From a phage, in the sequence record PV730300.1: a stretch of 64,000 bases of DNA; one strand, 5' to 3'. Below the pieces are notes generated by a model, which was given only the letters and a program-made list of their open reading frames with translations, had not been told where the DNA came from and ran no database searches. The translations under genes were made by a program, and so were the position numbers. Shown here one piece after another: positions 14,853-35,956 of this stretch; positions within the stretch are counted from its first letter, which is position 1, and each line of letters starts with the position of its first letter.

Positions 14853-15325
14853 TGGCAGATTTAACTACGATCAAAATTTCTGATCTTACACAAACAACCT
14901 CTGTGTCTGATACAGATTTCTTTGTAACAGATCAGGCTGGAATAACAAAGAAAACTTCTTTGAAAGTGCTGTTGAGTGGTGCAGGGGTAACTAGAAACCG
15001 TCTGAATGCACGGGGAACAGTAACTAGCACCTTGGTATTAGATATTAGTTCGGCAGAATATTTTTCAGCAACTTTATCTTCTGCAACGTGCACAATTAGT
15101 TTTACTAATATTCCAGTAGCAACAAATGCAGTTTTAAACTTTACTTTAGCTTTGCGTCAAGGAAGTGGTGCAAATAAAGTCGTATGGCCTTCTTCTGTAA
15201 AATGGAGTTTTGGTCGTTCCCCAGTTTTGAGTTATCGTCAAGGTGCAACAGACACTTTTGAGTTTATCAGTTATGATAATGGAGCAACTTGGACAGGTAG
15301 CTTAGTTTTAGCAGGAGTTATTTAA
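14852..15325 (+). CDS. Baseplate / tail structural protein
   Basis: 157 aa ORF with overlapping stop-start to both neighbours. Confidence 0.4.
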   Translation: MADLTTIKISDLTQTTSVSDTDFFVTDQAGITKKTSLKVLLSGAGVTRNRLNARGTVTSTLVLDISSAEYFSATLSSATCTISFTNIPVATNAVLNFTLALRQGSGANKVVWPSSVKWSFGRSPVLSYRQGATDTFEFISYDNGATWTGSLVLAGVI

Positions 15326-33485: not shown

Positions 33486-33490
33486 GAAAA

Positions 33491-33518
33491 GGAGCCAAAT
33501 GGCTCCTTTCTTTTATTC
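33491..33518. terminator. Bidirectional intrinsic terminator between convergent plus and minus transcription units
   Basis: 7-bp stem aggagcc/ggctcct with aaat loop flanked by A-rich upstream and T-rich downstream tracts. Confidence 0.65.
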
Positions 33519-34007
33519 AGCGTTCAACCCTTCCCCATGTTCTTGATGCCAAGCTTCATGGTGCAGAGGACACAGCCATAGAACATCTAACGGTTTATCA
33601 TAATCACAATGATGAGCATGAACATCAACAGACCCACACACTTGGCAAGGTTGTTTTATTAACTTTCCATCTCGGAGTGCGTTACCTACAGCTATATGAG
33701 CAGAACGTTTTTTCGGATTCTTTTCGATGTAACGTTTCTTAGCTTCATTAGCCTTATCTTTACCTTTCCCTTTTGCGTAAGCCTCTTTTAAAGCTTTGCG
33801 CTCTGGGGTCTGATCTCTGTTTTTATCATACTCTTTGTAATATTCAGATTTATCTTTACGATTCTGTTTAACATCTTTCTTATTACATTCTTTGCATTTA
33901 TTGACGTGACCGTCAGCCATAGCTTTATGTTTGTAAAATTCAGTGAGGGGCTTTAACACCCCACACTTGAAACAAACCTTAGAAGCAATGCAGGAAGTTT
34001 CGACCAT
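33513..34007 (-). CDS. HNH homing endonuclease
   Basis: C-terminal CQVCGSVDVHAHHCDYDKPLDVLWLCPLHHEAWH (HNH with Cys pairs); likely ATG at 34007 (listed ORF start 34205 overlaps the upstream gene). Confidence 0.7.
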   Translation of the reverse strand: MVETSCIASKVCFKCGVLKPLTEFYKHKAMADGHVNKCKECNKKDVKQNRKDKSEYYKEYDKNRDQTPERKALKEAYAKGKGKDKANEAKKRYIEKNPKKRSAHIAVGNALRDGKLIKQPCQVCGSVDVHAHHCDYDKPLDVLWLCPLHHEAWHQEHGEGLNAE

Positions 34008-34908
34008 ATTGCAGTCCAATAGGGGCAAAAGGAATATCTTCATCGAAGTCCATTGGAGGTTCTTCTTGATTACTTGGAGTTGGTTCTGGTTGTGGTTCAG
34101 GTTTCTTAACTTCTTTCTTCTCTTCTTTCTTAGGTTGTTCTGCGGAACCACGGATGGCAGCAGCAACTTTATCAGACAGAGCCAGAACTTTACGAGCAGA
34201 GTCAATCAGATCTTCTACAGATACAGTCTTAATGGTATGGTCTTTACAAGCATTGAGGATAGCGTGACCAACAGATGCCCCAAGATCATAATCATTAATA
34301 TCAACGCCACGAGATTCAGCAATTTCCGATTTCAGTGTGACAGTTGCAGATTGAACAACCCCAGCGATATCGAAAGCATCGCCTTTAACACCATTACGAA
34401 TCAGTTCCAGTGCACCATTTACTGCGTGACCAGTTTCCAGACCTACAGTATCACGTTTTTTATAGGATTGCTTAGGAGCATCGTTGGAACCTTTATTGCC
34501 AGAAGATTTGTTAGACTTCTGAACACCATCGGTAGACAATACTGTAATACGAGATTTTTTAGTATTGTAGTAAGTCTTACCGCCTTTATTATCAACGCGA
34601 TCAATATCAATACTTACTTCTACACCTTTTTCAATAGTGATCCAATTATCACCTTCTTTGACTTGCAGGTTTTCATAACCTTCTTTCAGTTCAATGTCAC
34701 CAAGAGAAATCCAAACACCTTTCTCATCTGGTTTAGCACCTTTCTCTTTCAGAACAAGAGAAGCTCGGTGAGTTGAAACAATCGTTTTTCCTTCCCAATG
34801 AAAAGTTTTAGGTTCAGCGAATTTATCCAGTTTAACGTAGTCTACGATACCAGTTGCATAAGTTACGGTTTTGCCTTTACGATCAGTTTCAGTATTAATT
34901 ACGGACAT
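33979..34908 (-). CDS. Single-stranded DNA-binding protein-like, with E. coli SSB-type acidic tail motif
   Basis: 309 aa; C-terminal PSNQEEPPMDFDEDIPF closely resembles E. coli SSB tail (PSNEPPMDFDDDIPF) but is followed by 15 further residues that overlap the HNH gene start. Confidence 0.5.
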   Translation of the reverse strand: MSVINTETDRKGKTVTYATGIVDYVKLDKFAEPKTFHWEGKTIVSTHRASLVLKEKGAKPDEKGVWISLGDIELKEGYENLQVKEGDNWITIEKGVEVSIDIDRVDNKGGKTYYNTKKSRITVLSTDGVQKSNKSSGNKGSNDAPKQSYKKRDTVGLETGHAVNGALELIRNGVKGDAFDIAGVVQSATVTLKSEIAESRGVDINDYDLGASVGHAILNACKDHTIKTVSVEDLIDSARKVLALSDKVAAAIRGSAEQPKKEEKKEVKKPEPQPEPTPSNQEEPPMDFDEDIPFAPIGLQYGRNFLHCF

Positions 34909-35362: not shown

Positions 35363-35956
35363 TTACCAAGGAATATCATCTTCTTCCAATCTGGCATCTA
35401 CTTGAGGTGGACGTGGAACCTTAACCTCTTTCACAAAACGAAGATATGGGAAACGTGTAGCAATTTTAATAACATGTTTGGCATCTTCTCTAACATCTTT
35501 GTGCAAGAAGCAGATCCCTGTTTCCAAGGTTGTTTCAAAATCTTTAGAATAATAACAGTCCTTCCCATCAAATGCAGCCTGGCAGATGGACAGATCGAAC
35601 TCATTTAGAAAGGTTGTCATTACGCTTGGTTCCATAATCATAAGGTTGCAAAGCTGACCATCACGTTCAAACTCAAAAACGTGTTTAAGACCAGTAACAC
35701 CTTCATAATTGTCAGAAGCCTCTTTGTTTCCTAGTTTACGAATATTGGTTCCCATTAAAGCAGATGCAATTAATCCTTGTATTTGTTCTTCAGTCTGATG
35801 TGCAGGAAGGGATGTATAGAAATCCAGATCACGTCCAGCAATATCAAGAATACGCCAATCACGAACAGCACCGCCAGCCAAGACAGAATTAGGATCAGCG
35901 ATCTTTAATACGGTAAGAATCTCTTTGGCAATATTGATTTGTTTTGATTTAGTCAT
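35363..35956 (-). CDS. Pol-beta-superfamily nucleotidyltransferase-like protein (tRNA nucleotidyltransferase head-like) with SSB-tail-like C-terminus
   Basis: LAGGAVRDWRILDIAGRDLDF fits the GG-x-VRD...DxD head motif; C-terminus ends EEDDIPW. Confidence 0.45.
   Translation of the reverse strand: MTKSKQINIAKEILTVLKIADPNSVLAGGAVRDWRILDIAGRDLDFYTSLPAHQTEEQIQGLIASALMGTNIRKLGNKEASDNYEGVTGLKHVFEFERDGQLCNLMIMEPSVMTTFLNEFDLSICQAAFDGKDCYYSKDFETTLETGICFLHKDVREDAKHVIKIATRFPYLRFVKEVKVPRPPQVDARLEEDDIPW

What the first reader, a model, noticed from the sequence alone, without database searches (positions are those of the whole stretch)
33979..34060. E. coli SSB-like C-terminal tail motif is internal: 15 extra residues overlap the HNH endonuclease start
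The 309-aa protein carries PSNQEEPPMDFDEDIPF, nearly identical to the E. coli SSB tail, whose function depends on a free C-terminal Phe. Here the ORF runs on for 15 residues (APIGLQYGRNFLHCF) before stopping, and the HNH gene ATG (34007) lies inside this extension. This suggests insertion of the HNH gene remodelled the 3' end of the SSB gene, potentially altering partner binding, or that the tail is exposed by processing.
Basis: partly seen in the sequence, partly recalled or inferred. Interest (0 to 1): 0.55.

Follow-up and report, generated by a model that had tools for sequence, protein, structure and literature searches.

The report
Conserved cap on phage SSB tail
The 15 residues after the E. 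coli-like SSB tail are real and are a conserved, selected "cap" peptide found behind this tail on many phage replication proteins and often beside a mobile HNH endonuclease gene, which questions the rule that this tail must end the protein.

Summary
The minus-strand ORF 33979-34908 (309 aa) ends ...PPMDFDEDIPF + APIGLQYGRNFLHCF*. A 164-aa HNH-type gene starts at ATG 34007, inside the extension. The window is a Phapecoctavirus. Most relatives end at DIPF* and have no HNH. About nine carry the extension, each with this HNH or a deleted remnant of it, so in this genus the extension came in with the HNH cassette.

The extension is not read-through junk. The same 13-17-residue module ([AS]P[IV]GLQY, then 6-10 residues ending in a hydrophobic residue) directly follows DDDIPF-type tails in 81 distinct peptides. 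These sit on PF00436 SSBs, this OB-plus-helical protein family, DnaB-type primase/helicases and several unannotated families, mostly with no HNH nearby. Its pN/pS is 0.08-0.15 in the SSB frame and at least 0.9 in the other two frames.

The HNH family sits directly behind the module in at least six unrelated host genes, so it probably homes to tail-coding DNA.

The function of the cap is unknown. My best guess is a composite docking peptide in which the tip is internal. The main rival is a pro-peptide that is cleaved off. I found no paper containing the motif.

The parts
33979..34908 (-). SSB-like gene, 309 aa. It consists of an OB-fold domain, a linker, a four-helix domain, a disordered acidic tail and the cap.
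   Evidence: ORF. It matches phrog_4477; SSB PHROGs and NCBIfam hit only the tail. There are 108 homolog clusters.
34525..34908 (-). N-terminal all-beta domain (aa 1-128), predicted OB fold.
34153..34446 (-). Four-helix domain (aa 155-252). It is specific to this family and absent from PF00436 SSBs.
   Evidence: AF2 pLDDT is 88-95, with helices 155-171, 178-200, 207-222 and 231-252.
34027..34053 (-). E. coli SSB-Ct-like tail MDFDEDIPF (aa 286-294). Here it is internal.
   Evidence: Relatives have MDFDDDIPF.
33982..34026 (-). 15-codon cap APIGLQYGRNFLHCF (aa 295-309). It is one copy of a widespread conserved module.
   Evidence: 81 distinct tail-plus-cap peptides and 69 DNA versions were collected. 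pN/pS is 0.15 for the core and 0.077 over the full 15 codons in this frame, against 0.9-3.3 in the other frames.
33513..34007 (-). HNH-type endonuclease gene, 164 aa. The ATG lies inside the cap and overlaps the SSB-like ORF by 29 nt.
   Evidence: It matches phrog_2340 at 9e-49 over residues 9-163. The family has 991 clusters with invariant C12, C15, C38, C41, C121, C124, H132, H133, C146, H150 and H154. AF2 pLDDT is 94, with a beta-beta-alpha unit at residues 130-157. The gene is present or absent among near-identical genomes.
33885..33974 (-). N-terminal zinc ribbon of the endonuclease (CFKCG...CKEC). RefSeq-style starts (MADG...) cut it off.
   Evidence: Regex hit; invariant cysteines; RefSeq coordinates.
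33488..33509 (.). Shared terminator hairpin between the convergent tail-protein gene and the SSB-HNH unit. It marks the right-hand boundary of the cassette.
   Evidence: Terminator scan. In alignments A2 and A3 the empty, HNH-A and HNH-B alleles re-join at AAAAGAAAGGAGCC.

Best explanation
Shown: The 15 residues are one copy of a conserved C-terminal module, which I call the cap. Its form is [AS]-P-[IV]-G-L-Q-Y followed by 6-10 residues that end in M, I, L or F. In many phages of Vibrio, Aeromonas and enterobacteria it directly follows a DDDIPF-type tail. It is found on PF00436 SSBs, on this OB-plus-four-helix protein family, on DnaB-type primase/helicases and on several unannotated families. 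It is translated in frame with the tail and is under purifying selection.

Shown: A large family of zinc-ribbon-plus-HNH endonuclease genes sits immediately behind the module. Its start codon lies in the module's last codons, or overlaps the stop of uncapped tails. This is seen behind at least six unrelated host genes. The copies are polymorphic among near-identical genomes, and some are decayed.

Inferred: The endonuclease is a free-standing homing endonuclease that targets tail-coding DNA. In Phapecoctavirus the cap came in with HNH variant A by double-strand-break repair with co-conversion of the donor's flank. It has stayed after HNH was deleted.

Inferred, least certain: The tail and cap work together as one disordered docking peptide of about 25 residues for a replisome or host partner. 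In it the IPF tip is internal, so it cannot use the pockets of host SSB partners that clamp the free alpha-carboxylate. A new hydrophobic C-terminus is presented instead.
For: Alleles.
- The empty site ends DIPF* in most of the roughly 55 phages.
- HNH-A plus cap occurs in the window, Mt1B1_P17, ZCKP1, nieznany and PsgM04F.
- Cap plus one shared HNH deletion scar occurs in EcG1, DE16, DIJ07P2, 536P1 and ECO340P2.
- HNH-B with an intact stop occurs in nepoznato, AV125 and phiWec188/190.

Selection: pN/pS is 0.15 for the core and 0.077 for the 15 codons in the SSB frame, against 0.9-3.3 in the other frames. Every synonymous codon is used at each conserved residue over 69 DNA versions. Window versus L014 shows 5 of 5 differences synonymous. 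Length is 13-17 aa and the last residue is hydrophobic.

Breadth:
- 25 of 108 homolog clusters carry the cap.
- The representative library search returned 16 hits. The 15 retrieved all carry the tail plus cap and include canonical SSBs and other families.
- 47 IMG/VR contigs match the pattern where about one is expected by chance.
- Pfam SSB and DnaB_C domains are confirmed on cap-bearing proteins.
- Cultured Vibrio, Aeromonas and Salmonella phages carry it.
- Only 9 real hits were found in 185,579 bacterial species genomes.

Two replisome proteins in one genome carry it (NINP13076 primase/helicase and SSB-like protein). In GAP31 the order is helicase-cap, then HNH, then DNA polymerase.

HNH sits behind the cap in this family, the P0116 family, the P0124 family, a PF00436 SSB (L084), L072 and primase/helicases. 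Decayed copies are seen in L048, L081 and the EcG1 type. No promoter lies between the SSB-like gene and HNH.

SSB-Ct pockets anchor the terminal alpha-carboxyl (PMC10164576; PMC3152348). AF2 leaves the tail and cap disordered.
Against: No binding partner has been identified and no binding was tested.

The cap is optional within genera. Most phapecoctaviruses lack it, and Mydovirus KB57 appears to. So whatever it does is not essential.

The fixed length and hydrophobic C-terminus would also suit a substrate of a C-terminal processing protease.

Homing was never observed. Cleavage specificity is unknown, and the HNH fold search was uninformative. The window protein does not reach Pfam's HNH threshold.

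The direction of change in nepoznato-type alleles (cap lost or never present) is unresolved.
Confidence: 0.55

Rival explanations
1. Pro-peptide. The cap is cut off after Phe294 by a host or phage protease. The mature protein then has the normal free DIPF tip, and the conserved residues are the recognition site.
For: Conservation is strongest right after the Phe (A-P-I-G-L-Q-Y). The fixed length of 13-17 aa and the hydrophobic last residue resemble substrates of C-terminal processing proteases, such as the D1 protein with CtpA (my own knowledge). The DIPF tip remains strictly conserved in capped proteins. Capped and uncapped alleles coexist in one genus, as expected if both give the same mature protein.
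Against: No cytoplasmic protease with this specificity is known in E. coli, where the PDZ proteases are periplasmic (my own knowledge). None was seen next to these genes. Some capped proteins carry tandem internal tail copies, for example DDVPFDDDIPF and MDFDEPPMDFDDDIPF, so internal copies appear to be used as such. Nothing here tests cleavage.
Confidence: 0.2
2. Shield or degron. The cap only blocks the tip, keeping host SSB-partner nucleases or SSB-sensing defence systems away, or it marks the protein for turnover. No new partner is involved.
For: An internal Phe cannot offer the alpha-carboxylate that SSB-Ct pockets clamp (PMC10164576). Phage SSBs are known triggers of defence systems (Retron-Eco8 and DARNA preprints listed). 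The C-terminus is hydrophobic.
Against: Any extension would block the tip, so a pure shield does not explain strict conservation of APIGLQY and of length. It also does not explain why the blocked DIPF stays conserved. A degron on both the SSB and the replicative helicase of a lytic phage is hard to rationalise.
Confidence: 0.12
3. Expression device for the endonuclease. The extension exists to place the HNH start inside a translated ORF, for translational coupling or as a nascent-peptide pause, and has no role in the SSB-like protein.
For: The HNH start codon lies 2-11 codons before its first Cys, inside the last cap codons, in nearly all linked cases. There is no promoter and no evident Shine-Dalgarno sequence.
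Against: 42 of 47 IMG/VR capped genes, all 9 bacterial ones, and PVP-SE1, L014 and L033-L037 have no HNH, yet they keep the peptide under purifying selection. The same HNH family works without the cap in nepoznato, L021 and L027. The RNA fold of the junction is not unusual (z -1.6).
Confidence: 0.06
4. Neutral scar. The extension is random read-through created when the insertion destroyed the stop codon, and it is merely tolerated.
For: In this genus the extension is strictly linked to HNH-A or its remnant.
Against: pN/pS is 0.08-0.15 in the SSB frame only. There are 81 peptide variants of constant architecture across unrelated proteins. No truncated caps were seen, although GGA, TTG, CAA and TAT are each one step from a stop codon.
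Confidence: 0.03

Closest known systems
E. coli SSB C-terminal tip (SSB-Ct, ...PPMDFDDDIPF) and its partner-protein hub
   Same: The nonapeptide is the same in relatives and differs at one residue in the window. It sits at the end of a disordered, Pro/Gln/Glu-rich linker behind an OB-fold domain.
   Different: The tip is internal here, followed by a conserved 15-aa cap, whereas SSB-Ct pockets clamp the terminal alpha-carboxyl. The globular part is not PF00436 and carries an extra four-helix domain. The capped form is nearly absent from bacterial chromosomes.
T7 gp2.5 and gp4 acidic C-terminal tails ending in Phe, which both dock on T7 DNA polymerase (own knowledge; mentioned in PMC5686142)
   Same: Several replisome proteins of one phage share one C-terminal docking peptide. 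In Seunavirus NINP13076 both the primase/helicase and the SSB-like protein end in tail plus cap, and the helicase gene is followed by the DNA polymerase gene, with the HNH gene in between.
   Different: T7 tails end at the aromatic residue. No cap is known there, and no binding was tested here.
Free-standing homing endonuclease genes of T4-like phages, such as segG next to the SSB gene 32 and mobE in the nrd genes (own knowledge; review PMC2988022 listed)
   Same: A small endonuclease gene lies between conserved replication and other genes. It is present or absent among near-identical genomes, is co-transcribed and weakly expressed, has decayed copies, and shows altered flanking sequence on the donor side.
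   Different: The start codon lies inside the host ORF. The element is associated with a selected in-frame peptide at the end of the host protein. The same family sits behind at least six unrelated genes that share only the tail. Cleavage and homing were not shown.
C-terminal pro-peptides removed to free a functional carboxylate, such as photosystem II D1 with CtpA (own knowledge)
   Same: A short C-terminal extension of 9-17 residues lies behind a residue whose free carboxylate matters.
   Different: This is an analogy only. No protease and no cleavage evidence was found here.

Membership tests
Bacterial-type SSB (Pfam PF00436) | Sequence match of the OB domain to the SSB profile | tested here: not met
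   There is no Pfam hit in residues 1-250. NCBIfam and the SSB PHROGs match only the tail, residues 246-294.
Bacterial-type SSB (Pfam PF00436) | OB fold of the DNA-binding domain | tested here: met
Bacterial-type SSB (Pfam PF00436) | ssDNA binding and oligomerisation | not testable with these tools
   These need biochemistry.
Functional SSB-Ct tip | Acidic run followed by I-P-F | tested here: met
   The tail is MDFDEDIPF at aa 286-294. It aligns with E. coli SSB residues 170-178.
Functional SSB-Ct tip | Phe is the last residue, giving a free alpha-carboxylate | tested here: not met
   Fifteen residues follow the Phe in the window. The feature is met in ESCO5- and ESCO13-type alleles. Post-translational removal was not tested.
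HNH / His-Me finger endonuclease | Catalytic His-His plus downstream His/Asn, and a CxxC...CxxH zinc site | tested here: met
   H132, H133, H150, H154, C121, C124 and C146 are invariant in 44 sequences.
HNH / His-Me finger endonuclease | Beta-beta-alpha-metal fold | tested here: inconclusive
HNH / His-Me finger endonuclease | Curated profile match | tested here: inconclusive
   PHROG matches are phrog_2340 'endonuclease' at 9e-49, phrog_1035 'endonuclease VII' at 1e-9 and phrog_2255 'HNH endonuclease' at 3e-6. The window protein has no Pfam hit. The homolog in L032 scores 20.8 bits on PF01844, whose cut-off is 21.4.
Free-standing homing endonuclease gene | Presence/absence polymorphism at one site in otherwise near-identical genomes | tested here: met
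   Flanks are 95-99% identical, with empty, HNH-A, HNH-B and deleted alleles.
Free-standing homing endonuclease gene | Association with one conserved target sequence in different genomic contexts | tested here: met
   The same HNH family lies directly behind tail or cap codons of at least six unrelated genes.
Free-standing homing endonuclease gene | Cleavage of the element-free allele and biased inheritance | not testable with these tools
   This needs enzyme assays and phage crosses.

The most novel reading that the evidence does not exclude
The APIGLQY cap is a previously undescribed short linear motif. It turns the universal bacterial SSB-Ct hub peptide into an internal, re-addressed docking signal on phage SSBs and primase/helicases. 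This would recruit a phage or host partner while hiding the tip from the host's SSB-partner nucleases or SSB-sensing defences. A dedicated family of HNH homing endonucleases spreads the motif between unrelated genes, using the conserved tail codons as the homing site and co-converting the cap.
Probability: 0.35. Interest if true: 0.85.

Novelty: new variant of a known kind. Interest (0 to 1): 0.7.

Why it matters
The SSB C-terminal tip is a textbook example of a motif that must be at the very end of the protein. Its free carboxylate is clamped by every characterised partner. Here, many phage replication proteins keep the exact tip but bury it behind a conserved, selected 13-17-residue cap. I could find no paper that contains the motif.

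Nature also supplies near-isogenic pairs with and without the cap, such as ESCO5 versus EcG1 or DE16, and the window phage versus either. That makes the question directly testable. Candidate roles are changing the partner set, being removed, or evading host factors.

The finding also points to a homing endonuclease family whose target seems to be a peptide-motif-coding sequence shared by unrelated genes. It further shows a way in which a selfish element could move a functional peptide module between proteins.

On the practical side, the cap should be considered in three settings: when phage SSBs are used in recombineering, when SSB tails are used to predict partners, and when annotating these genes. 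The HNH start is mis-set in RefSeq records.

Tried and rejected
- **Frameshift or early termination after Phe294.** The other two frames have no nearby stop. The Pro third base varies, and Phe uses TTT 45 times and TTC 24 times, so there is no slippery site. Rejected.
- **RNA structure at the junction.** The MFE z-score is -1.6, which is not significant.
- **Cap docking on its own protein.** AF2 leaves residues 253-309 at pLDDT 44-65. There is no support for docking.
- **In-frame SSB-HNH fusion products.** None was found among the 120 listed HNH homologs.
- **Word-index search with the 45-aa tail.** It returned only one candidate, so that search was wasted. The full HMMER scan worked instead.
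- **Literature string searches for the motif.** They returned nothing relevant. PDB chains have no cap-like segment.
- **KNP2 as a two-protein example.** The record has Ns at the junction, so NINP13076 was used instead.
- **Weak similarity between ESCO5 post-stop DNA and cap DNA.** The match is 11 of 19 positions, too weak to decide which allele is ancestral.

Full report
**1. The observation.** The window carries a minus-strand ORF at 33979..34908 of 309 aa.
- The protein ends ...PTPSNQEEPPMDFDEDIPFAPIGLQYGRNFLHCF*.
- Read from the sequence, the tail MDFDEDIPF occupies 34027-34053 and the 15 extra codons occupy 33982-34026.
- The stop TAA is at 33979-33981.
- In another frame an ATG at 34007 opens a 164-aa ORF that ends at 33513. 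The two ORFs overlap by 29 nt.
- The tail aligns with the very end of E. coli SSB (1eqq/4mz9 residues 155-178 of 178). It also aligns with the end of NCBIfam PRK09010.
- The description is therefore correct.

**2. What the two genes are.** The 309-aa protein has no Pfam hit and belongs to phrog_4477, of unknown function. SSB profiles match only its tail.
- An AlphaFold model built on 63 homologs gives an all-beta domain at residues 1-128. A disordered linker follows, then a confident four-helix domain at 155-252, then a disordered end at 253-309.
- 'SSB-like' is therefore reasonable at the level of fold. The protein is not a PF00436 SSB.

The downstream protein matches phrog_2340 'endonuclease' at 9e-49 over residues 9-163.
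- It belongs to a family of at least 991 clusters.
- The family has an invariant N-terminal zinc ribbon (C12, C15, C38, C41).
- It also has an invariant CxxC...HH...CxxH...H core.
- Its model (pLDDT 94) has a beta-beta-alpha unit at residues 130-157.
- I call it HNH-type on the strength of the motif and the PHROG matches.
- RefSeq records start it at MADG..., which removes the zinc ribbon. The ATG at 34007 is the better start.
- No promoter-like site separates the two genes, and one terminator at 33488-33509 closes the unit.

**3. Alleles in the genus.** The window is a Phapecoctavirus, 95-99% identical to many isolates. At this site there are four states.
- **(a) Empty.** The protein ends ...DDDIPF* (CCG TTC TGA). 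This is the case in ESCO5, ESCO13 and most of the roughly 55 distinct phages.
- **(b) HNH variant A plus the 15-codon extension.** This is found in the window, Mt1B1_P17, ZCKP1 and nieznany. It is also found in the more distant PsgM04F.
- **(c) Extension kept but HNH-A internally deleted.** All copies share one junction (AAGTGT[G/A]TGAGGTTGAA). This is found in EcG1, DE16, DIJ07P2, 536P1 and ECO340P2.
- **(d) HNH variant B with the native stop.** Here the TTG start overlaps the TGA. This is found in nepoznato, AV125 and phiWec188/190.

All alleles re-join at AAAAGAAAGGAGCC, the terminator.

**4. The extension is a conserved module.** Among 108 homolog clusters of the SSB-like protein, down to 28% identity, 25 carry an extension after the Phe. 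Examples are:
- APIGLQYGRNFLHCF and APIGLPYGRNFIHCI
- APIGLQYGMKLLHAMP and APVGLQYARHAISALYA
- SPLGLQYPNHSMYALYA and APICLMYPNHAIYAL
- APIGLQYRELLYAM and APIGKQYRAELYL
- APIGLMYNNAYIHCI

DNA from 15 distinct versions gives pS 0.81 and pN 0.12 for the APIGLQY block in the SSB frame, so pN/pS is 0.15. The other two frames give 1.5 and 3.3. For the GRNF-type full 15 codons the values are 0.077 against 0.88 and 1.5. The window and L014 (64% protein identity, no HNH) differ at five positions in the 45 nt, all synonymous in the SSB frame.

A full HMMER scan of 1.84 billion representatives with the window's last 40 residues returned 16 hits. The 15 that I retrieved all carry the tail plus the module. 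They include canonical E. coli-type SSB fragments and unrelated proteins of 161, 268 and 480 aa.

The degenerate DNA pattern for PFAP[IV]GLQY hits 47 IMG/VR contigs. Roughly one hit is expected by chance if the collection holds about 1e11 bases, which is my assumption. Nearly all hits are the last 13-17 codons of an ORF, right after an acidic ...D-I-P-F. FAPIGLQY is preceded by Pro in 43 of 44 hits.

Pfam confirms PF00436 SSBs (L091, L056, L084) and a DnaB_C primase/helicase (L046) among the carriers. Over 69 distinct DNA versions every synonymous codon is used at each conserved residue of both the tail and the cap. The length distribution is 14 aa (40 versions), 15 aa (23), and 13, 16 or 17 aa (6). 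The last residue is M, I, L or F in most.

Cultured carriers include many Vibrio phages, Aeromonas 2L372D and 4L372D, Salmonella PVP-SE1, SSE121 and SalP219, and Acinetobacter ABPH49. In 185,579 bacterial species genomes there are only 9 real cases. Those with a complete N-terminus are canonical MA(S)RGVNKVILVG-type SSBs, one of them on a 45-kb plasmid. No paper in the library contains the motif strings, and no PDB chain resembles the cap.

**5. Relation to the endonuclease.** Only 5 of the 47 IMG/VR capped genes have the HNH family behind them, and in two of those it is a remnant. PVP-SE1 gp038, L014 and L033-L037 have the cap directly followed by a terminator. So the cap does not depend on HNH.

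Conversely, wherever the HNH family was seen it sits immediately behind a tail.
- Its start codon lies 2-11 codons before its first Cys.
- In capped genes that start lies inside the last cap codons.
- It lies behind capped ends of this family: L009, L010, L012, L024, L031, L032 and ABPH49.
- It lies behind capped ends of the 268-aa family (L038) and the 480-aa family (L040).
- It lies behind a PF00436 SSB (L084) and behind L072.
- It lies behind the primase/helicase of Seunavirus GAP31 and NINP13076.
- It also lies behind uncapped tails: nepoznato, L021, and L027, which ends ...DVPFN*.
- These cases are documented.

The only thing these host genes share is the tail, with or without the cap. 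Together with the presence/absence polymorphism and the decayed copies, this is the signature of a free-standing homing endonuclease whose target lies in tail-coding DNA.

The inference for this window is as follows. HNH-A and the cap codons on its 5' side were copied together into an uncapped phapecoctavirus gene by break repair, with the upstream exchange inside the conserved tail codons. The donor-type CCW TTT, against CCG TTC in empty alleles, marks the edge. The cap then survived deletion of HNH, with only synonymous changes (GCC to GCT, CGA to AGA). Cleavage and homing themselves are not shown.

**6. What the cap may do.** Typical SSB-Ct pockets bury the terminal Phe and anchor its alpha-carboxyl group on a 'basic lip'. 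Loss of that contact abolishes binding (PMC10164576; PMC3152348). A capped tip cannot make that contact, yet DIPF remains as conserved in capped proteins as the cap itself.

Some capped proteins carry two tail copies in tandem, such as DDVPFDDDIPF and MDFDEPPMDFDDDIPF. That suggests internal copies are used as such.

In NINP13076 both the primase/helicase and the SSB-like protein end in tail plus cap. In GAP31 and NINP13076 the capped helicase gene is followed, after the HNH gene, by the DNA polymerase gene. This recalls T7, where the SSB and helicase tails share one docking site on the polymerase (own knowledge).

I therefore favour a composite, disordered docking peptide with a new hydrophobic C-terminus. 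I hold this loosely. The cap is optional within genera, no partner is known, and AF2 gives no hint.

The main rival is a pro-peptide that is cut after the Phe. The fixed length and hydrophobic end fit that too, but no protease is in sight. The other readings fare as follows.
- A pure shield or degron does not explain the sequence conservation.
- A device for HNH expression is contradicted by the many HNH-free capped genes.
- A neutral scar is refuted by the selection test.

**7. Verdict.** The local event is an ordinary kind of thing, a mobile endonuclease cassette next to a replication gene. What it carries into the SSB-like gene is a widespread, selected and apparently undescribed cap on the SSB tail. 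That would surprise specialists and is directly testable with natural near-isogenic phages.

Noticed in passing
window 35363-35956 (-), C-terminus at 35366-35383: The 197-aa nucleotidyltransferase (phrog_10174), two genes upstream, ends ...LEEDDIPW*. The free [DE][DE]DIPW end is kept in Mt1B1_P17, ESCO5, ZCKP1, nepoznato, PsgM04F (DEDIPW) and phiWec188 (QDDIPW). This is a second SSB-Ct-like tail in the same operon.
   Followed up: partly
window 33920-34007 (-); L001 2526-2933, L003 1532-1939: RefSeq and GenBank records start the endonuclease at MADGHV... (135 aa). That cuts off the invariant N-terminal zinc ribbon. The ATG at 34007 (164 aa) fits the family profile.
   Followed up: yes
window about 33943-33965 (-): A GC hairpin (GGGG...CCCC) lies inside the zinc-ribbon codons TGT GGG Gxx xxx AAG CCC CTC, 17 nt after the SSB stop, and is followed by TTTT. 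The GGG and CCC codons are kept in about 11 of 14 HNH DNAs seen. It may attenuate HNH expression.
   Followed up: partly
L107 (Cronobacter phage GAP31) 1-1453; L108 and L109 (Salmonella phage NINP13076): The primase/helicase ends ...DFDNDTPF-APIGLQYANHAIYAL* in GAP31 and ...DMDDDTPF-APIGLQYANHAIYVL* in NINP13076. It is overlapped by the same HNH family and followed by the DNA polymerase gene. NINP13076 also has the capped SSB-like protein, so two capped replisome proteins occur in one genome.
   Followed up: yes
Klebsiella phage KB57 (hit H196): The Mydovirus KB57 primase/helicase matches the query only as far as ...DDDTPF. The helicase gene may therefore also have capped and uncapped alleles within a genus.
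   Followed up: no
P0077, P0016, P0110, P0072: Some capped proteins have tandem tail copies before the cap: MDFDEPPMDFDDDIPF-, DDVPFDDDIPF-, DDDFPFDEDIPF- and DFDEFDEFEDIPF-.
   Followed up: no
L106 (Klebsiella phage KNP2, NC_048647.1 around 15000-15100): The public record has a run of N exactly at the SSB-tail/HNH junction, so the annotated 467-aa 'hypothetical protein' is an artefactual fusion.
   Followed up: partly
L048, L081 (IMG/VR): Only the first 35-40 residues of the HNH protein remain behind the cap. These are further decayed copies of the element.
   Followed up: partly
L032 3171-3713: This HNH homolog itself ends ...EIKIPF*, an IPF C-terminus on the endonuclease.
   Followed up: no
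L078 (IMG/VR, 4037 bp): A 634-aa ORF with a portal-like N-terminal part runs into an SSB-type Q-rich linker, tail and cap. It is probably a chimeric assembly or a frameshift rather than a real fusion.
   Followed up: no
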